DNA from: an uncultured Nitrososphaeraceae archaeon
Lineage (GTDB): Archaea > Thermoproteota > Nitrososphaeria > Nitrososphaerales > Nitrososphaeraceae
Length of the DNA: 64,000 nt
NCBI GenBank assembly: GCA_963825865.1
Contig: CAWGVG010000026.1
Coordinates: 128,001-192,000, forward strand
Direction of reading: 5' to 3'
Part shown: one piece after another, positions 44-59,058 of the stretch
Layout of the letters: every line of letters begins with the position of its first letter
How positions within the stretch are numbered: position 1 is the stretch's first letter
The notes under the pieces: generated by a model
The model's database searches: none
Told to the model about the DNA's origin: nothing
Seen by the model: the letters and a program-made list of their open reading frames with translations, nothing else
Program-made: the position numbers and the translations under genes

Positions 44-285
44 ATTGTCCGGCTAGCCGAAAGAGATGAAAATCCGTCATTCAGATCTGCATAGTAGGTA
101 AAGGCCTGCTATGTTTAAAGAAATGATGTGTTGGCATCATATGAACTATAGGTATTCTGCTAGTCTGAGAGATTTAGCAAATAGTCCAATCGTGTGGTGT
201 TAAGGGCAAACCACAAGGCTGCGTGGAACCTGTGGGCTCAGTCTTGAATGGAAAGCCACATGTCTTCGAGTCTTAGTCGGATAAT
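44..285 (+). ncRNA. Putative large structured ncRNA, copy 1 (unknown family)
   Basis: 13-bp terminal stem (44-56/273-285) and several internal hairpins. Shares motifs GCCGAAAGAGA, AAGGG(C/A)AAACCACA(A/T)GGCTGC and AAGCCACATGTCTTCGAG with 21168-21402. No ORF. Confidence 0.75.
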
Positions 286-18571: not shown

Positions 18572-19036
18572 TTAAAGGTCTAACAAAAATCTAGTAATGA
18601 CTTTATTTCTTTCTTGTATGATTTCCATTTCGTGATAAGTTACTGCTTTAATCTCTACTTTGTAATGGTGTTTTTTGAGATTGAGATACTCTCCCTTAGC
18701 AATTCCTGAAAGAAAATAACTATTGTCGTTGTTATTATTATTCTGATATATTTTGACTTTGAAAACTGAAATTAGGATATTCTCAACCAAAAGCGTTAGC
18801 AGAACTTTCTCTAACCAATCGTAAAGTAGACTTTTAAGGTCGTATCCCTTTGCTTGTATATTGATTTCTTGATTAGGCGAAACTCGCTCTATGTCAAACA
18901 TTGTGTTAACAAGGCCACAAGCTGAATTTTCAAAAGCCTCATCTAATGTGCAACCATATGCCTCTATAACAGCATCTGTCAGATGATCAAGGTATCGGAA
19001 TCGTCGATGAACTGATGACATATTTGTATGATTCAA
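18572..19036 (-). CDS. Archease
   Basis: YLDHLTD and EIKAVTYH motifs. Confidence 0.92.
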   Translation of the reverse strand: MNHTNMSSVHRRFRYLDHLTDAVIEAYGCTLDEAFENSACGLVNTMFDIERVSPNQEINIQAKGYDLKSLLYDWLEKVLLTLLVENILISVFKVKIYQNNNNNDNSYFLSGIAKGEYLNLKKHHYKVEIKAVTYHEMEIIQERNKVITRFLLDL

Positions 19037-19108
19037 AACTAACTAATTCAGTTTATTATATAATTGATCGTAAAATCTAAATGTCAACATCTACTGATTT
19101 CAAATGAA

Positions 19109-20416
19109 ATGATGAAATTAGAACTTCCTCGTGGAATGAGAGACCTTGCACCAGAAGAGTTCTATAACATTAATTATATTGAAGAAAAATTCCTTGAAAC
19201 GACATCCTTGTTTAACTTCAAATTTATGGAGCCGTCACCACTTGAGACTGCTCTGCTACTCTGGAGACAAAGAGTGGTGCATCTATTTCAAATGAAATAT
19301 ATAGTTTTATCGATAGGGGCTCCAGGAGCGTTGCATTAAGATTTGATCTTACAATTGGTTTAACAAGATTTGTAGGCAGCAAGAAGGGATTTGAAGATGC
19401 CAGTCAAAGTTGGAGCGTTCGCTGGTGTTTGGAGATATGACGAACCGCAGGCTGGACGATATCGATATTTTCATCAATGGGACGTAGAAGTTTATGGTTC
19501 ATTTAGTCAAGAGTCTGATGCTGAGGTAATTGAATTTATTTCGGTATTTTTCAAAAAGCTTGGGCTAGATGTAATCATTGAAATAAACGACAGACAACTA
19601 ATGGAAGAATATGTAAGGAACAGACTTGGTGTTTCAGATGAGCAAATGATCCTAGAAATGTTCAGAGCGGTCGACAAGGTCCAAAAAAAAGGTGCAAAAG
19701 GAGTTTATGAGGAATATAAGGATAAAATTGGGTCTTCAAAGCTACAAGCTCTAATAGATATATCGATGGTTAAGGGGAATATCGATGAAGTATTTAATTC
19801 AAAAAGAGATCTAATAGAGCTTGCAAATTGGAGTAAACTTGCAGGATTAATGGATTCATTAAAATCAAGAGGAGTCTATAATGCTCGAGTTAACCTTGGC
19901 ATTGTACGTGGACTGGACTATTATTCTGGAGTCGTGTTTGAGGCATTTGATCCCTCTTTACTTGATTCAGGTGCTCTGGTAGGTGGTGGCAGATACGATA
20001 GGTTAACTGATGCTTTTGGAAGAAAAGATATTGGCGCAACAGGTGCTGCTGGAGGAGTTGAAAGGATAGTGGGAGCCTTGCAAACCCATGGAATTTTAAA
20101 ATCAACGCCAAAGCCTATAATTTACGTTGCATATACATCGACTAATGCAAGTAAGGAGGCTATAGTAATAGCCTCTAATTTACGCAAGAGCGGAGTTATT
20201 ACTGACTATGACCTTCAAGGTAGGTCACTGGGAAAGCAACTACAAGATGCAAGCACAAAGGGTGCGCTATTAACAGTGATAGTGGCACCAGATGAAATTA
20301 AAAACGGACAGGTAACGCTTCGGTCAATGAAGGATGGTATTGAAAGTAAACAGAATGTAGAGGATCTAGCACGAGATCTGAACAGGATGATACCACCGCT
20401 GCTGCGACGTGATTAG
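19109..20416 (+). CDS. hisS: Histidine--tRNA ligase (frameshifts in 5' part)
   Basis: LPRGMRD, RYDEPQAGRYRYFHQ, VRGLDYY and GGGRYD. Confidence 0.95.
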
Positions 20417-21167
20417 ATAGAGAACCTGTTACCATAACACGAGCACTTTTCGTTTTTATAATCGCATTTCATCTTTTTTTATCATAAACATAAATTTCTA
20501 ATTACAACTTCTGGAGGGTGCGAAGCTCCCAAATCAACGATACTCATTTTTGCCTTCAATTTGAAACGGATTGCACTCCATAGATATGTTTGAGAGTGCG
20601 AACTGGCGCTCGATGAAGACCTGTTATATATATATCAAATCCACCTTTTGAACTAAAGAAGAAGAGTTGATTGAATTCATTTCTTTATTTTATCTAAATG
20701 CTGCATATAGTCATTATCAAAGGAAATCTTGTAGGTCATCTTACTCTATATTGAGATCATATTATTTCATTTATGAATCATGCATCATGGTTAAATCTCT
20801 ATAAATGATACAGTTTGAAACAATTTCTAAAAAAAAGAGCATTTTCTAACTCAAAAAGATATAAGGTTACATATATGATTTGTAAATATTATGAATTACT
20901 ATAAGTAAAAAATACAAAGAACAGATTGTGATAAATTCATTGCAGAAGATGGGGCTTCCTCAAATAGAGGAATTGAAGCATATTTTGTATTAGATGGAAG
21001 AAATGTGCGGTAGCGTTTTGTCAATATAATTAGAAGATGTTTATCACAAATTTGCTATGGGAGCTGCAATAACCTATTATTGCTTATGACGTCGTCAATT
21101 ATATTCAATCTTATTTATTAATTGGTTTGACAGAAAGACATAAACTCTGCAATGCATCTGTATTTAC

Positions 21168-21402
21168 TATCCGATTGGCCGAAAGAGAAGAACGATCCAC
21201 CAATTTGCGCAAGGCTGCAAGTTTAGGCTTGTAGTCTCTTCAGAAATGGTGTTTATCGTGATATGCCGTAGGTTAACTACAGCTTCACCTGTAGGGAGTA
21301 CATGCATATATAAAGCGATAAGGGAAAACCACATGGCTGCCTCGTAGCCTATTGAAGTAGCTGTGCAAGGGAAGCCACATGTCTTCGAGAGCTGGTCGGA
21401 TA
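21168..21402 (+). ncRNA. Putative large structured ncRNA, copy 2 (unknown family)
   Basis: 12-bp terminal stem (21168-21179/21391-21402); same motif order and helices as 44-285 with compensatory changes. Confidence 0.75.
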
Positions 21403-21599
21403 TTATGATTAATACTGTTCTTAAACTGAATAGGAAATAAAGGCTGACGATATATTCGAATTACTCCAGGAAAGAGACATTATCCAAAAAAAACCTTAAG
21501 TTATGTACGCATTTAATTACAAAAGTACCCGAAAATTGAGGTGCCCATTGCTATTGTAATTCACATAGACTATACGATTAATATTGCGATCTCGTGAAA

Positions 21600-21780
21600 A
21601 CATGGGACATGGTATTGATGTGCTAGAAGTCGCGACTGGTCTCAAAGTCGCATTAATAAATAGTGGACTTACTATCGAATCCCATACTTAATTTTGGACC
21701 TGTAGAAATTGCCTCGATAGTTGGAATAGATGTCTATGTAGCAAAAATTATCTCTTATGTAAAGTTTAAATTGGCATAAA
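21600..21780 (+). pseudogene. Remnant of small helix-hairpin-helix-like hypothetical protein
   Basis: Broken frame IDVLEVATGLKVALINSGLTIES...EIASIVGIDVYVAKII. Confidence 0.4.
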
Positions 21781-22018
21781 AAATTCACGAGGCAGTACAT
21801 CATACCACCATTACACCAGAAATACAGATTAACTATTATCATGAAGAATGCAAATTAAATGCAAATCTGTCTTTTTGCAAATAAGACGACTTTACACTCA
21901 AGTTTTTTGTTGATAAACAAGGCTTTCTTTTGCTGTAAGCCTTTGAATGATACAATCTAACAGCAACCTTTTGGAGGTGTTATTTAGCTTACTTATACTT
22001 TTTCTCTTATTTTTCAGT

Positions 22019-22810
22019 TTAAATCTTCATCCTTACCATTGATCTTGTTGCAATTAAAAATACTGCGGCGGCAAGAAAACTTATAATAAGTACCTCAATA
22101 TTAGTAAATGCATTTATCTGTGAAAATATTCCAGCCCTGCTGATGTCCACTATATATGTCAATGGATTAATATAAAATGCAACATATAAGGGCCCTGGTA
22201 GTCCTTGTGCAGGATAAAAAGATGAGCTAACAAAAGCAAAAAATAGGAAAAGACCGTTACTAATAACATTGTACCCTTCACTACTTTTGATCTTCGTTGA
22301 TAAAATTATTGTAAAAGAACCAAAGAATATTGAGCCTACTACTAGTGCGTATACAGTGTAAGGTATGCTCCACAAGGTAATGTTCACATTTCCGAACATA
22401 GTTGGGAAACCAATTATAATAATGACTGCCGCGCTGGCCAATCCGATTAGGATGATTGTTATAAGATTGCCAATAATATACTGAACCTTACTAAATGGCA
22501 TAACAAGTAACTGTTGAAACATGCCATTTCTCTTGTCATTCCAAATAATACTACCAGCTACACTACTGCCATTCATCACATTAAACCCAATCATACCAGC
22601 AGTTAAAAATGAAGTATATGTAACGGATAAAGCACCCATCTTAATATCTTGGTTTCCCATCATTGCAGAATAAGCGTACCCGGCTACAAATATGTAAACG
22701 ACAGGAAAAGCTACCTGCCAAATCAAGAATACCCTGTCAATCGCAGCAACAATGTTTCTGTATACTAATAATAGTATACTGTCTATCAACTTTAGCCAAT
22801 CATTCACCAT
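22019..22810 (-). CDS. ABC-2 type exporter permease
   Basis: About six TM segments; SSSFYP and INPLTY motifs. Confidence 0.9.
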   Translation of the reverse strand: MVNDWLKLIDSILLLVYRNIVAAIDRVFLIWQVAFPVVYIFVAGYAYSAMMGNQDIKMGALSVTYTSFLTAGMIGFNVMNGSSVAGSIIWNDKRNGMFQQLLVMPFSKVQYIIGNLITIILIGLASAAVIIIIGFPTMFGNVNITLWSIPYTVYALVVGSIFFGSFTIILSTKIKSSEGYNVISNGLFLFFAFVSSSFYPAQGLPGPLYVAFYINPLTYIVDISRAGIFSQINAFTNIEVLIISFLAAAVFLIATRSMVRMKI

Positions 22811-43653: not shown

Positions 43654-45175
43654 CTCGTAACAGACTCAAGCTAAATTGGTGTTGACCAAGATCCTTAGAC
43701 AGTTGTATCAAATTATGTTAAGCAGTCTAGTAATAGTGGTATTTATTGTTGTGCTCCAAATTTTTGTGATGTTTTGATCGATTTCAGATCCATAGTAAAG
43801 TGGATAATATAGGGTTATACCCAAGACACCTAATCCTAGAAGTACATGCGACAATTCTTTTCGGCCACGAAGCACCCCAGAAATCCCAAAAGCTTTGCTT
43901 AACCTTACCAATTGATAAAGCTATTTTTGCTAGGTTTTCATGAGCTTCGGCCAGTGTGGGTTTTATTTCTACAGCCTTCCTGACCTCCTTCATGGCCTCA
44001 TCATAATTGTCTTTTGAATATAATGCTCTGGCTTTGGAATTATGAGCCTCTGCAAATCTTAAGTTATGTTTCTTTGCAAGATCTAATGCACTATCTAAAC
44101 ACCTTATTGCATCATCATATTTTCCTTTTTCGGAATAAACATTTCCCAGATAATACCATGCATTTTTGTCATTAGGATTCTTATGTACAGCACAGCTCAA
44201 GATATCCAGAGCTTTATCATATTTGCCCATGTTGTAACATATAAGTCCTCTAACAACTAACGCATTGGCATAATTGTCATTTCTTCCTAGTGACTCGTCA
44301 TTCAGTGCTTCTGCTTCCTCATTCCTACCCATTCTTGCAAACAATAAAGCTTTCCAGGTCAATATTATAGGATTATCGGGGGATTTTTCCAAGGCGGTGT
44401 CATAGCATTGTATAGCTTCTTCATTCTTTTCATCTCGCTTTAAAGCGGCAAGGGCTTCACCCTTGTTAGCCAATGCATAGGGGTCTGATCATCCATTTCT
44501 ATAGCTTTTATTAAAGATTTAAGACCTTAATCGTACTTTTCCAGTCCGCCAAAAGCGGCACACCTGTTGGCCCAAGCTACCGCATTATTCGCATTCAGTG
44601 CTATAGCCTTGTCATAATATTTAATAGCATCATCGTACTTCTCTAAATAATAAAAAGCGTTGCCCTTGTTAATATATAGAGTATCATTCTTTATATTAAT
44701 GTCAGTCTCTTTTATTACTTTTTCAAAGTGTTTAATGGCCTCGTCATATTTACCTAAGTTCCTATACTCTGTACCCCTGTTCAACCACACAGAAGCCCTG
44801 AATACAACGCGGAAAATTGGTGACAAATCAGCCGGCGTTGCTTCGATTTTCATTTTCTATTATTCCTAAAGATTCATCATAGTATTTGACAGCCTCTTCA
44901 TATTTTCCCAAATTGGAGAGAGCTCTTCCTTTACCATTCAATGCAATAACACAGTCAGACTTTAAATCCAGGGCTTCATCAAACCATTTGACAGCCTCTT
45001 CATATTTTCGTTGGCCCAAAAGAGTCAAAGCTTTATTTGCAAACGGACTAGGGTCAAGATTTGGGCCGGCTACTACATGTACAGGTTCCATAGATTTTTT
45101 GTTTATCTCTATGGTTTTATCAAAGCATATGATAGCCTCATCGTAATTTCTGAGGTTATTCCAAGAATCCTGCAC
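43654..45175 (-). pseudogene. Tetratricopeptide-repeat membrane protein, IS-interrupted and frameshifted
   Basis: Many NKG.AL..LGKYEEA..YDKA repeats over several frames; C-terminal TM region. Confidence 0.85.
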
Positions 45176-50388: not shown

Positions 50389-50890
50389 TCAGTTGGTTGA
50401 GTTTGAGCCATGCTTCCACCCAAGGAATCCCCAGTTTGACCAACCGTTGTTTGGGGCTGTTTGCCATACATTGAAAATCTCATTAGTAAAGCGTTCTGCA
50501 AAAACCTCTAGCCTCCCATCAGCATTTGAACCTATAGCCGGCTGTCCTCCTATTCTAAAGCTGTTCAAAATTGCCCAGTTTGACCAACCGTTGTTTGGGG
50601 CTGTTTGCCAAATATGATGTTTAGTTCTATCGTTTCGTACAACAAATACCTCCAATCTGCCATCTGCATTATGACCAACAGCTGGTGGAACTGAAAGCAG
50701 CAAGTCCAAGACCCAGGGAATCCAGTTAGACCACCCGGACTGGACTTGTCTGCCAAATTTGATAAAGATTGCCATCTGACCAAATTGCAAATACCTCCAA
50801 CCTTCCGTAAGTTCCTTCCTACAGACGGAGTTGAAGATAAATTTCCGCCCAAAGAAGCCCATTGTGTCCATTGTGTCCATCCAGTCACTT
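50389..50890 (-). pseudogene. PLL-type beta-propeller lectin repeat remnant
   Basis: Repeats NADGRLEVF...WQTAPNNGWSNW; DNA direct repeat CCCAGTTTGACCAACCGTTGTTTGGGGCTGTTTGCCA near 50430 and 50574. Confidence 0.7.
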
Positions 50891-58035: not shown

Positions 58036-59058
58036 CTAATGTTGCGTTGGAGACACAGACAATACTTGGATTCGGCTATTATCACGATCGACGAGGTATC
58101 CTTTACCAGCTAACCCTAAGTCAAAATCAACTGAATTATGTAGATGACCACTAGTAGCTATGCCAAGAGGCCCCAATTTATTGATGAATTTGCCATCTTG
58201 ACTAAATTCCTGTATGCGATCATTGCCACTATCAACTACCCACACATGACCTATTGCATGATCTACAAATACATCAGTTGGAAAATACAGCTGACCATTA
58301 CCTCTACCAAGAGAACCCCAAGACATAATGAATTTGCCATCTGGGGTAAACTTATCAATATGGTTATTGCCAAAGTCAGCTACATATACATTACCAAATC
58401 CATCAACATCAAGACGACTTGGGTTAACAAATTGCCCTTCTCCTGTACCAAAAGAGCCGAAAGACATAATGAATTTGCCATCTGGGGTAAACTTATCAAC
58501 ACGGTTATTTCCAGTATCAGATACGTATACGTTACCTGTCTTAAGATCTACTGCAATACCGGTAGGAGTGATAAACTGTCCTGGGCCAGAGCCAGAAGAA
58601 CCCCATTTTGTAATGAACTTACCATCAGTTGCATTAAACTCCTGGACTCGTGCATTAGCTCCATCTGTCACATATATGTGACCTCGACCCTCATCTATGG
58701 CAGCCTCTATTGGGCTATTGAACTGTCCTGGGCCAGAGCCAGAAGAACCCCATTTTGTAATGAACTTACCGTCTATTGCATTAAGCTTTTGTATACGGTT
58801 ATTTCCAGTATCAACTACATACACATTACCTTTAAAGTCTAAATCTATACCTGATGGACTATCAAACTGACCATTACCTGATCCACGGGAGCCCCACGTA
58901 TTAACAATAGTCAGCGCATAAGCATATGAGGACATAGTAGCTGTAATTAAAAGCACAATTTGTACTATTGCTACTGCTCCTGATAATAAGATCCGCCTGG
59001 TGTTATTGTTGTTAAATTTTTCTGTTGATTTAGACCATAGAAGATAATCTATAATCAT
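58036..59058 (-). CDS. Secreted NHL-repeat beta-propeller protein
   Basis: Signal/TM segment, then repeats WGS.GSG.GQF..P.GI.VD..GNVYV.DTGNNR. Confidence 0.9.
   Translation of the reverse strand: MIIDYLLWSKSTEKFNNNNTRRILLSGAVAIVQIVLLITATMSSYAYALTIVNTWGSRGSGNGQFDSPSGIDLDFKGNVYVVDTGNNRIQKLNAIDGKFITKWGSSGSGPGQFNSPIEAAIDEGRGHIYVTDGANARVQEFNATDGKFITKWGSSGSGPGQFITPTGIAVDLKTGNVYVSDTGNNRVDKFTPDGKFIMSFGSFGTGEGQFVNPSRLDVDGFGNVYVADFGNNHIDKFTPDGKFIMSWGSLGRGNGQLYFPTDVFVDHAIGHVWVVDSGNDRIQEFSQDGKFINKLGPLGIATSGHLHNSVDFDLGLAGKGYLVDRDNSRIQVLSVSPTQH

What the first reader, a model, noticed from the sequence alone, without database searches (positions are those of the whole stretch)
21268..21352. Conserved candidate pseudoknot in the RNA family
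Seen: GTAGGTTA (21268-75) is complementary to TAGCCTAT (21345-52) with G-U pairs. In copy 1 the equivalent TATAGGT (147-153) pairs with ACCTGTG (228-234). In both copies the 5' strand lies inside the central arm and the 3' strand in the 3' domain, so the pairing is non-nested. Inference: a compact tertiary fold, as in ribozymes or ligand-binding RNAs.
Basis: partly seen in the sequence, partly recalled or inferred. Interest (0 to 1): 0.7.

Follow-up and report, generated by a model that had tools for sequence, protein, structure and literature searches.

The report
Pseudoknot in a circular archaeal RNA
The proposed pseudoknot is real and conserved, and the RNA that carries it is an undescribed, widely conserved archaeal RNA that is cut out of its transcript and joined into a roughly 200-base circle.

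Summary
The complementarity is at the stated coordinates in both window copies. It is a conserved non-nested helix. In 101 homologues of the same taxonomic family, 93.6% of cells in a 6-pair core form standard pairs, and 5 of 6 pairs change on both sides. Six other families keep a helix at the same place with different sequences.

The host is a ~250-nt gene family with no Rfam match. It is distinct from RNase P and SRP RNA. It was found in 66 of 151 genomes of the family and 46 of 151 of the order.

The terminal stem is a bulge-helix-bulge motif, with 4/4 central pairs in 125 of 141 sequences. Metatranscriptome contigs from three runs join 21387 to 21184, which gives a 204-nt circle cut at the two bulges. 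Ligation creates a 4-5 bp hairpin capped by a GNRA loop in 127 of 141.

The pseudoknot ties the internal loop of arm P3 to the terminal loop of arm P4.

A ~220-aa PD-(D/E)xK-like protein gene lies within 1.6 kb in 35 of 46 RNA-positive genomes. Function is unknown; an RNA-protein particle is my guess. Nothing tested here bears on a ribozyme or ligand-binding role.

The parts
21166..21415 (+). RNA gene copy 2 (precursor, full covariance-model match)
   Evidence: R1 match 185.3 bits, E 4e-51; a linear 235-nt metatranscriptome contig covers 21169-21403 (run X16)
21184..21387 (+). Mature 204-nt circular RNA of copy 2; the joint can be placed up to 4 nt further on because AGAG stands on both sides
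   Evidence: Joint 21387->21184 ('goes back 204', both=4) in 234-nt contigs of runs X15, X17 and X20. 234 = 204 + 30, as expected for a circular path at word size 31 (my reading)
21170..21179 (+). Outer helix P1, 5' strand (pairs with 21391-21400); removed on excision
   Evidence: 9 pairs, 95.7% of cells paired, 7 pairs with changes on both sides
21391..21400 (+). Outer helix P1, 3' strand
21180..21186 (+). Bulge-helix-bulge, 5' half: central helix strand CGAA (21180-21183) and 3-nt bulge AGA (21184-21186)
   Evidence: central helix 4/4 paired in 125 of 141 sequences, with types CGAA/UUCG 73, CAAA/UUUG 24, CAGG/CCUG 12 and others; the joint falls here
21384..21390 (+). Bulge-helix-bulge, 3' half: central helix strand TTCG (21384-21387) and 3-nt bulge AGA (21388-21390)
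21198..21250 (+). Arm P2 (lower stem, internal loop, 10-bp upper stem with a conserved loop)
   Evidence: helices 4-6: 73.8, 89.4 and 93.5% of cells paired; the U-G pair closing the loop is present in 95 of 101
21253..21321 (+). Arm P3 (central arm): 12-bp proximal stem, internal loop, distal hairpin
   Evidence: helices 7 and 9: 92.0 and 91.0% paired; 11 of 12 and 6 of 6 pairs change on both sides
21268..21275 (+). Pseudoknot 5' strand (GTAGGTTA), in the 5' side of the P3 internal loop
21323..21376 (+). Arm P4 (3' domain): GGN/NCC base, AAA/AAA internal loop, 10-bp stem, 14-nt terminal loop
   Evidence: helices 10-12: 93.3, 97.0 and 86.0% paired
21345..21352 (+). Pseudoknot 3' strand (TAGCCTAT), in the P4 terminal loop
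44..296 (+). RNA gene copy 1 (precursor)
   Evidence: R1 match 229.9 bits; MFE z-score -4.39, 0 of 200 shuffles as stable
147..153 (+). Copy 1 pseudoknot 5' strand (TATAGGT)
228..234 (+). Copy 1 pseudoknot 3' strand (ACCTGTG)
58..64 (+). Copy 1 bulge-helix-bulge, 5' half (CGAA + AGA). Predicted circle about 64-270 (207 nt); not tested with reads
   Evidence: prediction only
265..271 (+). Copy 1 bulge-helix-bulge, 3' half (TTCG + AGT)

Best explanation
The 8-bp complementarity is a conserved pseudoknot. It is a long-range helix between the 5' side of the internal loop of arm P3 and the terminal loop of arm P4, in a ~250-nt non-coding RNA gene family of an archaeal order whose protein relatives are labelled Nitrososphaerota. 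[quoted passage not shown] I infer the enzymes to be the tRNA-splicing endonuclease and an RtcB-type ligase. Ligation re-pairs the junction into a 4-5 bp hairpin capped by a GNRA tetraloop. The mature circle therefore has four arms around one junction. P3 and P4 are neighbours at that junction, and the pseudoknot clamps them side by side into a compact body. Shown here: the pairing and its covariation, the BHB motif, and the circular joint in RNA libraries. Inferred: the enzymes, the 3D arrangement and the function. My best guess for function (about 0.4) is the RNA subunit or scaffold of a particle with the neighbouring ~220-aa PD-(D/E)xK-like protein.
For: PSEUDOKNOT. In 101 sequences aligned to a model in which the pseudoknot columns are unpaired, the 6-pair core is paired in 93.6% of 591 cells. 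Five of 6 pairs change on both sides. The covariation score is 0.288 against 0.237 +/- 0.008 in shuffles (0 of 500 reach it) and 0.027-0.128 when the partner is slid. The best single pair is U-A 78, U-G 10, C-G 9, A-U 1, other 1. An unbiased mutual-information scan makes columns 138 and 253 reciprocal best partners (rank 200 of 31,517 column pairs), and column 250's best partner is 143. The pseudoknot is as well paired as the nested helices, which range from 67.3 to 98.5%. In 32 sequences from 7 families, 30 have at least 4 contiguous pairs in the homologous windows, with family-specific sequences: GGGGG/CCCCC and GGAGG/CCUCC; CGUGG/CCACG, UGCGG/CCGCG and UUGUGG/CCACAG; AUGUGG/CCACAU; CGUAG/CUACG; GCAGGU/ACCUGC.

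CIRCLE. Contigs from 3 metatranscriptome runs join 21387 to 21184. The joint lies in a BHB whose central helix has 4/4 pairs in 125 of 141 sequences and covaries. The ligation-specific hairpin pairs are formed in 136, 115, 132, 121 and 124 of 141 sequences, with several pair types each. The junction loop is GNRA in 127 of 141.

STRAND. G-U pairs are near-invariant: U-G in 95 of 101 and G-U in 82 of 101.

PROTEIN LINK. Protein X is present in 44 of 46 RNA-positive genomes and in 33 of 105 RNA-negative genomes of the order sample. Its gene lies within 1.6 kb of the RNA in 35 of 46. These are my tabulations. The genus pattern is the same in the family sample.
Against: PSEUDOKNOT. Within the family the strands are mostly conserved, so much of the 93.6% is conservation. 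Only 20 cells carry double changes. Two of the four count-type measures are reached by 12 and 25 of 500 shuffles. Pairs 137-254 and 144-249 vary only between A/G-U or U-A/G and carry no mutual information. Sixteen and 15 of 101 sequences are unpaired at those two edges. In the distant families the register was found by a best-helix search inside windows, which biases upward. Only 16 of 32 beat shuffles at p <= 0.05. Two family f4 sequences have a C.A mismatch in the middle. Foreign loops do as well as the molecule's own loop in 15-19% of comparisons.

CIRCLE. It rests on assembled contigs, not raw reads, for one copy only. Runs X17 and X20 may belong to one campaign. No DNA run was laid, so a tandem DNA form is not formally excluded. 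The copy 2 MFE fold is not exceptional (z -1.60).

PROTEIN LINK. Protein X also occurs without a detectable RNA (f13 15 of 23, f15 6 of 15, f19 3 of 6), and no RNA was found beside it in 17 such loci. In the window's own genome X is on another contig. Kin are not independent, so the co-occurrence may reflect few events.
Confidence: 0.8

Rival explanations
1. The RNA is a mobile, intron-like BHB element, comparable to archaeal rRNA/tRNA introns that survive as stable circles. The fold and pseudoknot then serve its own stability or spread rather than a cellular function.
For: It is multi-copy in some soil genera: up to 13 matches per genome, 6 in the window's genome. Many copies sit at contig ends. 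Some lie near a phage-integrase fragment (L132) or a DDE transposase fragment (L101). Its context varies within the family. It is excised at a BHB and circular.
Against: It is single-copy in 37 of 39 RNA-positive genomes outside family f1, the exceptions being G056 and G226 with two matches each, and it sits at a locus syntenic across families. It is not inside any tRNA or rRNA gene (neighbours). It has no ORF. None of 11 viral-contig loci sharing a 17-mer matched the model. Paralogues within a genome are diverged (about 75% identity) and keep the structure through compensatory changes, which is not expected of recent transposition.
Confidence: 0.12
2. One reading: the RNA is a ribozyme or a ligand-sensing RNA, and the pseudoknot builds its active site or binding pocket.
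For: There are invariant junction nucleotides: 32 invariant columns in 30 sequences, and GAGGGC-AAAC and GGAAAGCCACAU blocks across the order. The fold is compact and pseudoknotted.
Against: No Rfam ribozyme or riboswitch family matches. No conserved downstream gene on the same strand would make it a riboswitch. Excision is explained by a protein-recognised BHB, not self-cleavage. A trans-acting circular RNA is an unusual format for a sensor.
Confidence: 0.08
3. The complementarity is not a pairing. The two strands are conserved single-stranded motifs, such as protein-binding sites, or pair in alternative nested structures, and they look complementary by chance or shared ancestry.
For: Low variation within the family (entropies 0.3-1.0 bits). 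MFE folds use part of the 5' strand in local pairs. Shuffle tests on single sequences are often weak.
Against: Both strands change together between families, into at least six different complementary pairs at the same structural place. There is reciprocal-best covariation within the family. Sliding the partner drops pairing to 25.9-45.0%.
Confidence: 0.05
4. The repeat is a DNA-level element (a MITE-like sequence with terminal inverted repeats), not an RNA gene.
For: Terminal inverted repeat (P1), about 250 bp, multi-copy, at contig ends.
Against: Strand-specific G-U pairs. Covariation in every internal helix. Abundant RNA contigs confined to the element and circularised. Single copy at a syntenic locus in most families.
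Confidence: 0.02

Closest known systems
Archaeal BHB-dependent circular RNAs (excised tRNA introns, circular pre-16S/23S rRNA intermediates; circularised SRP RNA of Thermoproteus, recalled)
   Same: Two 3-nt bulges separated by a 4-bp helix, with the excised part joined into a circle. This pathway (EndA cleavage, then ligation by RtcB or another ligase) is described in passages I read of PMC12558985.
   Different: This is a stand-alone gene in intergenic DNA, not part of a tRNA, rRNA or SRP gene. It has its own conserved four-arm fold, a pseudoknot and a ligation-created GNRA hairpin. It is conserved across an order.
Circular isoforms of IS200/IS605 omega RNAs in haloarchaea (PMC12558985; passages read)
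   Same: A structured non-coding RNA with a pseudoknot, circular forms, and a nuclease gene next door.
   Different: Those circles lack a BHB motif according to that paper, and they belong to TnpB transposons. Here the BHB is canonical. No TnpB or IscB domain was found among the 113 neighbouring ORFs scanned. The neighbour is a PD-(D/E)xK-like protein without a Pfam family.
RNase P RNA and SRP RNA of archaea (Rfam RF00373, RF01857)
   Same: Similar size, a multi-arm fold with long-range tertiary pairings, single copy in most genomes. In four genomes the protein X gene lies within about 2.6 kb of the RNase P RNA gene.
   Different: Both are found elsewhere in the same four genomes, above their Rfam cut-offs. 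No Rfam model matches this RNA.
Large bacterial structured RNAs of unknown function (OLE, raiA, ROOL, GOLLD; recalled, not tested beyond the Rfam scan)
   Same: Conserved, complex, pseudoknotted folds found by comparative analysis, with function initially unknown.
   Different: This RNA is archaeal, shorter and circular. None of those Rfam models matches.

Membership tests
Conserved RNA pseudoknot (tertiary loop-loop helix) | Watson-Crick/G-U complementarity between segments that are non-nested relative to the supported secondary structure | tested here: met
   the 5' strand lies in the P3 internal loop and the 3' strand in the P4 terminal loop. 114 of 123 distinct loop pairs have at least 4 contiguous pairs and 97 have at least 5.
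Conserved RNA pseudoknot (tertiary loop-loop helix) | Covariation that keeps the pairs | tested here: met
   5 of 6 pairs change on both sides; score 0.288 versus 0.237 (0 of 500 shuffles); 138-253 are reciprocal best; different complementary sequences in 7 families. R-scape was not available.
Conserved RNA pseudoknot (tertiary loop-loop helix) | Physical formation (protection in probing, rescue by compensatory mutants) | not testable with these tools
   Needs a bench experiment.
Archaeal BHB substrates / BHB-derived circular RNA | Helix, 3-nt bulge, 4-bp helix, 3-nt bulge, helix | tested here: met
   4/4 central pairs in 125 of 141 sequences; outer helix 4/4 in 104 and 3/4 in 26; the bulges begin with A (AGA, AAA and others). 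One search gives the pair types of the central helix. The inner helix is short (2 pairs: 134 and 96 of 141).
Archaeal BHB substrates / BHB-derived circular RNA | RNA joined head-to-tail at the two bulges | tested here: met
   joint 21387->21184 in runs X15, X17 and X20, with a 4-nt ambiguity that covers equivalent positions of both bulges. Based on contigs only, for one copy only; no DNA control was laid.
Archaeal BHB substrates / BHB-derived circular RNA | Cleavage by the splicing endonuclease and ligation by RtcB or another ligase | not testable with these tools
   Inferred from the motif. An archease gene (a cofactor of RtcB; recalled) lies at window 18575-19036, but that is not evidence for the reaction.
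Archaeal tRNA/rRNA intron | Lies inside a tRNA or rRNA gene | tested here: not met
   0 tRNA genes and no rRNA match in the window. The neighbours are protein genes.
Any Rfam 15 family (including RNase P, SRP, HEARO/omega RNA, riboswitches, ribozymes) | Score at or above the family's gathering threshold | tested here: not met
   0 matches in the 64-kb window; nothing over the RNA up to E = 10.
OMEGA/TnpB-IscB guide RNAs | Encoded at the end of a TnpB, IscB or IsrB gene | tested here: not met
   No such domain in the 46 + 67 neighbouring ORFs scanned with Pfam.
PD-(D/E)xK nuclease superfamily (for neighbour protein X) | Restriction-endonuclease-like alpha/beta core with acidic/lysine motif residues | tested here: inconclusive
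   The model is confident (pLDDT 92.2, pTM 0.88). Most of the Foldseek hits are PD-(D/E)xK nuclease folds, but all are weak (best E 5e-4, TM <= 0.33 normalised by the query). Invariant D80, E93, E95 and K118 fit such a motif only by my reading. No Pfam, NCBIfam or PDB sequence hit. The nearest named Atlas cluster is PDDEXK_14 at 0.85, a lead only.

The most novel reading that the evidence does not exclude
The circular RNA and the neighbouring PD-(D/E)xK-like protein form a previously unknown archaeal ribonucleoprotein, a nuclease that uses a covalently closed, pseudoknotted RNA as scaffold or specificity subunit. The expansion to many diverged RNA paralogues beside a single protein gene in large soil genomes would then supply alternative RNA modules. 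The evidence does not exclude this. The two genes are linked in 35 of 46 genomes in several different arrangements, and they disappear together from four genera of the family and from 8 of 18 genomes of one genus.
Probability: 0.2. Interest if true: 0.9.

Novelty: new variant of a known kind. Interest (0 to 1): 0.8.

Why it matters
Ammonia-oxidising archaea are among the most abundant microbes in soil and ocean, and to my knowledge almost nothing is known about their non-coding RNAs. This is a conserved, abundant, structured RNA with no database family. It uses the tRNA-splicing machinery to make a stand-alone circular RNA whose ligation junction itself builds a structural element, a GNRA hairpin. 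That is a defined, testable example of a purpose-built circular RNA in archaea. It also comes with a candidate protein partner of unknown function. The pseudoknot gives a direct handle for mutational tests of the fold.

I found no description of it. Seven searches were made and passages were read in four papers. Subscription journals and supplements were not searched.

Tried and rejected
- **Rfam:** nothing at gathering thresholds over the whole window, and nothing over the RNA at E <= 10.
- **RNase P or SRP identity:** rejected. Both are found elsewhere in four genomes.
- **Viral origin:** a 17-mer of the most conserved block hit 11 viral-contig loci, and 0 of 11 matched the model at E <= 0.001. 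This is one motif only, so viral copies are not excluded.
- **Riboswitch-type context:** no conserved downstream gene.
- **Locating loops in distant sequences by refolding sub-domains:** gave inconsistent loops and was dropped. It was replaced by alignment windows.
- **Best-helix search over the first 45 nt of P3:** the helix starts at positions 13-20 in 104 of 143 sequences, but only 49 of 143 beat shuffles at 0.05, because the window is wide.
- **Full-length order-wide model:** A model of the 3' two-thirds (R2) was used instead.
- **Search with filters off:** failed internally and was repeated with default filters.
- **RNA beside protein X in families f13, f15 and f19:** 0 of 17 loci matched, and there was no GC-rich island or conserved block. 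The RNA may be elsewhere, too diverged, or absent.
- **Parts of the 601-nt stretch without RNA cover:** not used as evidence.
- **Complex prediction of RNA with protein:** not attempted, because the tool handles proteins only.
Full report
**1. The observation.**
- Copy 2: 21268-21275 GTAGGTTA pairs with 21345-21352 TAGCCTAT (8 pairs, 2 G-U).
- Copy 1: 147-153 TATAGGT pairs with 228-234 ACCTGTG (7 pairs, 2 G-U).
- The two copies align over about 250 nt at 76% mean column identity.
- A third copy lies on another contig of the same genome (L002:558-817). Its helix is UAAUAGGU with ACUUAUUA.
- Against 200 shuffles of the partner loop, the window's two helices are unusual. Copy 1 gives -11.1 versus -3.4 kcal/mol (0 of 200 as good). 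Copy 2 gives -8.8 versus -4.3 (fraction 0.025).

**2. The RNA family.** No Rfam 15 family matches. There were 0 hits at gathering score in 64 kb and nothing over the element up to E = 10. There are no tRNA genes in the window.
- BLAST found relatives in 18 of 61 genomes, counting the window's own.
- I aligned 30 sequences (A3). RNAalifold predicted 44 pairs, 30 of them with compensatory changes.
- I built covariance model R1 with 255 positions and 65 pairs.
- R1 matched in 66 of 151 genomes of the taxonomic family. Four genera had none (g2 0 of 21, g5 0 of 21, g6 0 of 2, g13 0 of 21).
- R1 matched in 37 of 151 genomes of the order.
- A second model of the 3' two-thirds, built from 25 sequences outside family f1 (A9, R2), matched in 42 of 151.
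- The union is 46 of 151 by my tabulation. The three order samples have the same per-family denominators, so I take them to be the same genomes.
- Outside family f1, 37 of 39 RNA-positive genomes have a single match, and G056 and G226 have two. Inside f1 there are up to 13 matches per genome, and 6 in the window's genome.
- The family tallies include the unpublished genomes G034, G100 and (only) G122, in genera g9 and g12. None of their DNA was fetched.
- The RNA is neither RNase P nor SRP RNA. Both are found elsewhere, above their cut-offs, in G000, G014, G102 and G130.
- The organism is an archaeon, as shown by its archaeal RNase P and SRP RNAs and an archease gene. Atlas clusters of the neighbouring protein are labelled Nitrososphaerota.

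**3. Secondary structure.** 101 matches with E <= 1e-10 from 100 sources were aligned to R1 (A4).
- Of 71 pairs, 90.9% of 7,049 cells are standard pairs, and 58 pairs change on both sides.
- The covariation score is 0.472 against 0.232 in shuffles (0 of 500) and 0.063-0.095 for slid partners.
- The arms are: a closing stem P1; P2 (a 7-bp stem, an internal loop, and a 10-bp stem with a near-invariant loop); the central arm P3 (a 12-bp stem, an internal loop, and a distal hairpin); and P4 (a short base, an AAA/AAA internal loop, a 10-bp stem, and a 13-17-nt loop).
- Near-invariant G-U pairs fix the strand as +: U-G in 95 of 101, and G-U in 82 and in 74 of 101.
- An order-wide MAFFT alignment of 32 sequences from 7 families gives 43 consensus pairs, 37 with compensatory changes.

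**4. The pseudoknot within the family.** The pseudoknot columns are unpaired in R1, so A4 is not fitted to them.
- The 9-pair version, with lineage-specific extensions, is paired in 77.3% of cells.
- The 6-pair core (A4 columns 137-140 and 143-144 with 249-254) is paired in 93.6% of 591 cells.
- Pair types are:
  - A-U 43, G-U 34, G-C 4, other 16
  - U-A 78, U-G 10, C-G 9, A-U 1, other 1
  - A-U 95, G-U 3, G-C 1
  - G-C 76, G-U 18, A-U 1, other 3
  - G-C 91, A-U 4, G-U 1, other 3
  - U-A 59, U-G 25, other 15
- Five of 6 pairs change on both sides, in 20 cells. The covariation score is 0.288 against 0.237 +/- 0.008 (0 of 500). Slid partners give 25.9-45.0% pairing and scores of 0.027-0.128.
- Two count-type measures are weaker: 25 and 12 of 500 shuffles reach them.
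- A mutual-information scan with average-product correction, blind to structure, makes columns 138 and 253 reciprocal best partners (rank 200 of 31,517). Column 143 is the best partner of 250. The other four pairs carry little information because they hardly vary or vary on one side only.
- Over all 146 aligned sequences (123 distinct loop pairs), the longest own helix averages 6.06 pairs against 4.24 for shuffled loops. The duplex energy averages -6.9 against -3.4 kcal/mol. By energy, 58.5% beat shuffles at 0.05.

**5. The pseudoknot across families.** This is the stronger evidence. The strands at the same structural place have other sequences and stay complementary:

| Family | Pseudoknot helix (5' strand / 3' strand) |
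|---|---|
| f9 | GGGGG/CCCCC, GGGG/CCCC, GGAGG/CCUCC, AAGGAGU/ACUCCUU |
| f4 | CGUGG/CCACG, CCGUGG/CCACGG, UCGUGG/CCAUGG, UUGUGG/CCACAG, UGCGG/CCGCG |
| f12 | AUGUG(G)/(C)CACAU |
| f10 | CGUAG/CUACG |
| f7 | CGUAG/CUACG, UAUGUAGA/UCUACGUA |
| f6 | GCGG/CCGC |
| f1 | AUAGGU/ACCUAU, ACAGGU/ACCUGU, GCAGGU/ACCUGC, GUAGAUUA/UAGUCUAU, AGCAGGU/ACCUGCU |

- In fixed alignment windows of A7, 30 of 32 sequences have at least 4 contiguous pairs. The two exceptions, both in f4, have a C.A mismatch inside an otherwise 5-pair helix.
- Sixteen of 32 beat 500 loop shuffles at 0.05. Loops from other families do as well as the molecule's own loop in 15.4% of comparisons.
- With duplex energies on 137 of 146 sequences the figure is 19%. 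I dropped nine poorly aligned or truncated rows (L058, L147, L153-L159); none failed the loop-length limits of 8-45 nt. The own-family value is the best in its row for f1, f4 and f9, but not for f6, f7, f10 and f12, which share motifs with neighbours.
- These searches pick the best helix, so they lean towards finding one. The shuffles and the foreign-loop comparisons are the controls.

**6. The RNA is circular.** Six RNA runs hold 27-34% of the words of the 601-nt stretch around copy 2.
- I laid four of them. Runs X15 (soil, 2020), X17 and X20 (freshwater sediment, 2018; possibly one campaign) each give one 234-nt contig whose two pieces join 21387 to 21184 ('goes back 204', with 4 letters fitting either side).
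- The first and last 30 letters of each contig are the same stretch. That is what a circular path gives at word size 31 (my reading).
- Contig depths are 905, 52 and 214. The only other cover is a depth-2.3 contig at 21448-21600 in X15. I use depth only as a hint.
- X16 gives a linear contig at 21169-21403 (depth 4), which is compatible with the precursor.
- No DNA run was laid.

**7. The joint sits in a bulge-helix-bulge motif.** In copy 2:
- Outer helix: 21170-21179 with 21391-21400.
- Central helix: 21180-21183 CGAA with 21384-21387 UUCG.
- 3-nt bulges: 21184-21186 and 21388-21390, both AGA.
- Short inner helix: G21187-C21383 and A21188-U21382.

The five possible placements of the joint are cuts at equivalent positions at or within the two bulges (four of the five) or one place beyond them. 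That fits cleavage by the splicing endonuclease; the exact canonical cut position is recalled, not tested.

Across 141 analysable sequences (5 of 146 had gaps in these columns):
- The central helix has 4/4 pairs in 125, with covarying types: CGAA/UUCG 73, CAAA/UUUG 24, CAGG/CCUG 12, CGGA/UCCG 3, CGGG/CCCG 2, CAGC/GCUG 2 and others.
- The outer four pairs are complete in 104.
- The predicted circles are 180-258 nt, and 138 of 141 are 189-223 nt.

**8. A helix that exists only in the circle.** After ligation, the 3' strand of the central helix can pair with the nucleotides that follow the 5' bulge. In copy 2 this gives UCUUC, loop GAGA, then GAAGA.
- The five pairs are formed in 136, 115, 132, 121 and 124 of 141 sequences, each with several types (for example U-A 87, U-G 28, C-G 15).
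- The four-base loop made by the joint is GNRA in 127 of 141: GAGA 75, GAAA 51, GUAA 1.
- Examples from other families are CUCCU-GAAA-AGGAG, GUCCC-GAGA-GGGGC and CUCUC-GAGA-GGGAG.
- These nucleotides have other partners in the precursor. Their covariation is therefore independent support for the circle as the selected form.

**9. Neighbourhood.** Neighbouring ORFs are unrelated among the copies in family f1. Outside f1 a locus recurs that contains 3-hydroxyacyl-CoA dehydrogenase, a ~220-aa ORF ('protein X'), the RNA, a rhomboid protease, a DEAD/ResIII helicase and a phosphoribosyltransferase.
- Protein X is conserved: 15 sequences, 42-83% identity to the first, 46 invariant columns.
- It has no Pfam, NCBIfam or PDB sequence match.
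- Its model is confident (pLDDT 92.2, pTM 0.88). Most of the Foldseek hits are PD-(D/E)xK nuclease folds, though a few unrelated folds are listed. They include a CdiA-CT toxin domain (E 5e-4), XisH, FokI, SfsA, Bax1, NucS/EndoMS and Can2. All are weak, with TM <= 0.33 normalised by the query.
- The nearest named Atlas cluster is PDDEXK_14 at 0.85, a lead only.
- X is present in 81 of 151 family genomes. It is found in none of the four genera that show no RNA match (0 of 65) and in all but one of the genera that do; the exception is g11, where a single genome has only a weak RNA match.
- X is present in 77 of 151 order genomes.

By my tabulation:
- X is present in 44 of 46 RNA-positive genomes. 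The exceptions are G255 and G053.
- X is present in 33 of 105 RNA-negative genomes.
- In genus g27, 10 genomes have both and 8 have neither.
- The RNA lies within 1.6 kb of X in 31 of 39 RNA-positive genomes outside f1, and in 4 of 7 in f1.
- The arrangements differ: X then RNA on the same strand, 50-200 nt apart (f4, f9); convergent (f6, f7); RNA, phosphoribosyltransferase, then X (f10).

Against a strict partnership:
- X occurs without detected RNA in f13 (15 of 23), f15 (6 of 15) and f19 (3 of 6). I found no RNA in 17 loci around X there.
- In the window's own genome X is on contig C25, beside the RNase P RNA gene.
- Related genomes are not independent observations.

**10. How it most likely works.**
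- Shown: a gene with a BHB closing stem, a circular 204-nt product in RNA libraries, four covarying arms, and a covarying pseudoknot between the P3 internal loop and the P4 terminal loop.
- Inferred: the splicing endonuclease and an RNA ligase make the circle. The circle is protected from exonucleases. P3 and P4 leave the junction 1-2 nt apart, and the 6-8-bp pseudoknot fixes them side by side. The new GNRA hairpin may dock elsewhere. The compact circle then serves as the RNA part of a particle, most likely with protein X (about 0.4).
- Rivals are a mobile, intron-like element (0.12), a ribozyme or sensor (0.08), no pairing at all (0.05) and a DNA repeat (0.02).

**11. Literature.** Seven full-text searches found no description of this RNA. 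I read passages of four papers:
- PMC13475601 names only SRP and RNase P RNAs as abundant non-coding RNAs of a cultured relative.
- bioRxiv preprint 10.64898/2026.10.21.760802 does not mention this lineage.
- PMC12558985 describes archaeal circular RNAs, BHB processing, and circular omega RNAs that lack a BHB; it does not mention this lineage.
- PMC5069720 describes a different 229-nt RNA of marine Euryarchaeota.

Supplements were not opened, and subscription journals are not covered.

**12. Verdict.** The finding sits in a larger and more interesting object, a conserved, purpose-built circular RNA with a candidate protein partner.

Noticed in passing
G000:C25:2571-3218 (L202) and G000:C25:4028-4309; also G014, G102, G130: The protein X gene lies within about 2.6 kb of the RNase P RNA gene in all four genomes checked (0.8 to 2.6 kb by the coordinates). 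In G014 the order is RNase P RNA, helicase, X, dehydrogenase, circular-RNA gene.
   Followed up: partly
window 18575-19036 (-): An archease gene (Pfam PF01951, E 4.6e-39) lies 2 kb upstream of RNA copy 2. Archease is a cofactor of the RtcB ligase (recalled). The proximity may be chance.
   Followed up: partly
window 19064-19339 and 19391-20416 (+): The histidyl-tRNA synthetase looks split into two ORFs in different frames. The second has the HisRS core and the anticodon-binding domain. The first has no Pfam hit but reads like the N-terminus (my reading). This could be a frameshift, an assembly error or a real split.
   Followed up: no
window 20416-22019: A 1.6-kb stretch without a convincing ORF surrounds RNA copy 2. 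It contains a weak JUMPstart-like match at 20976-21017 (17.9 bits, E 0.48, below the cut-off of 35), probably chance.
   Followed up: no
G000:C41:1662-1933 (-), G000:C29:77238-77454 (+), G000:C17:1-47: There are further weak or partial matches to the RNA model in the window's genome (E 1.8e-10, 5.3e-9, 3.6e-4). In the C41 and C29 copies the pseudoknot windows show at most 3-4 pairs. They may be decaying copies.
   Followed up: partly
L158, L159 (G078:C37:42672-42975, G078:C65:5704-6008): Two copies keep the 5' half and the BHB, but the P3/P4 region is replaced or expanded (predicted circles 257-258 nt). This may be a variant subfamily or a disrupted gene.
   Followed up: no
L141-L146, L148, L151, L152, L160 (genomes G064, G016, G108, G095, G075, G035): A second, diverged subfamily co-exists with the main type in several soil genomes. 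Its pseudoknot is AGUAGGU/ACCUACU (AGCAGGU/ACCUGCU in one). Its BHB region is less regular: central helix 1-3 of 4 pairs as aligned.
   Followed up: partly
window 58148-58831, 44719-45150, 50430-50615: There are direct repeats with periods of about 141-147 nt (three plus two copies at 58148-58831) and of 102-154 nt elsewhere. They are probably repeats within coding sequence; I did not examine them.
   Followed up: no
L002:1181-1399 (+), downstream of the third RNA copy: A 72-aa ORF reads like the N-terminal part of a tyrosine recombinase (my reading; no Pfam hit). A phage-integrase fragment (L132) and a DDE transposase fragment (L101) lie near other copies.
   Followed up: no
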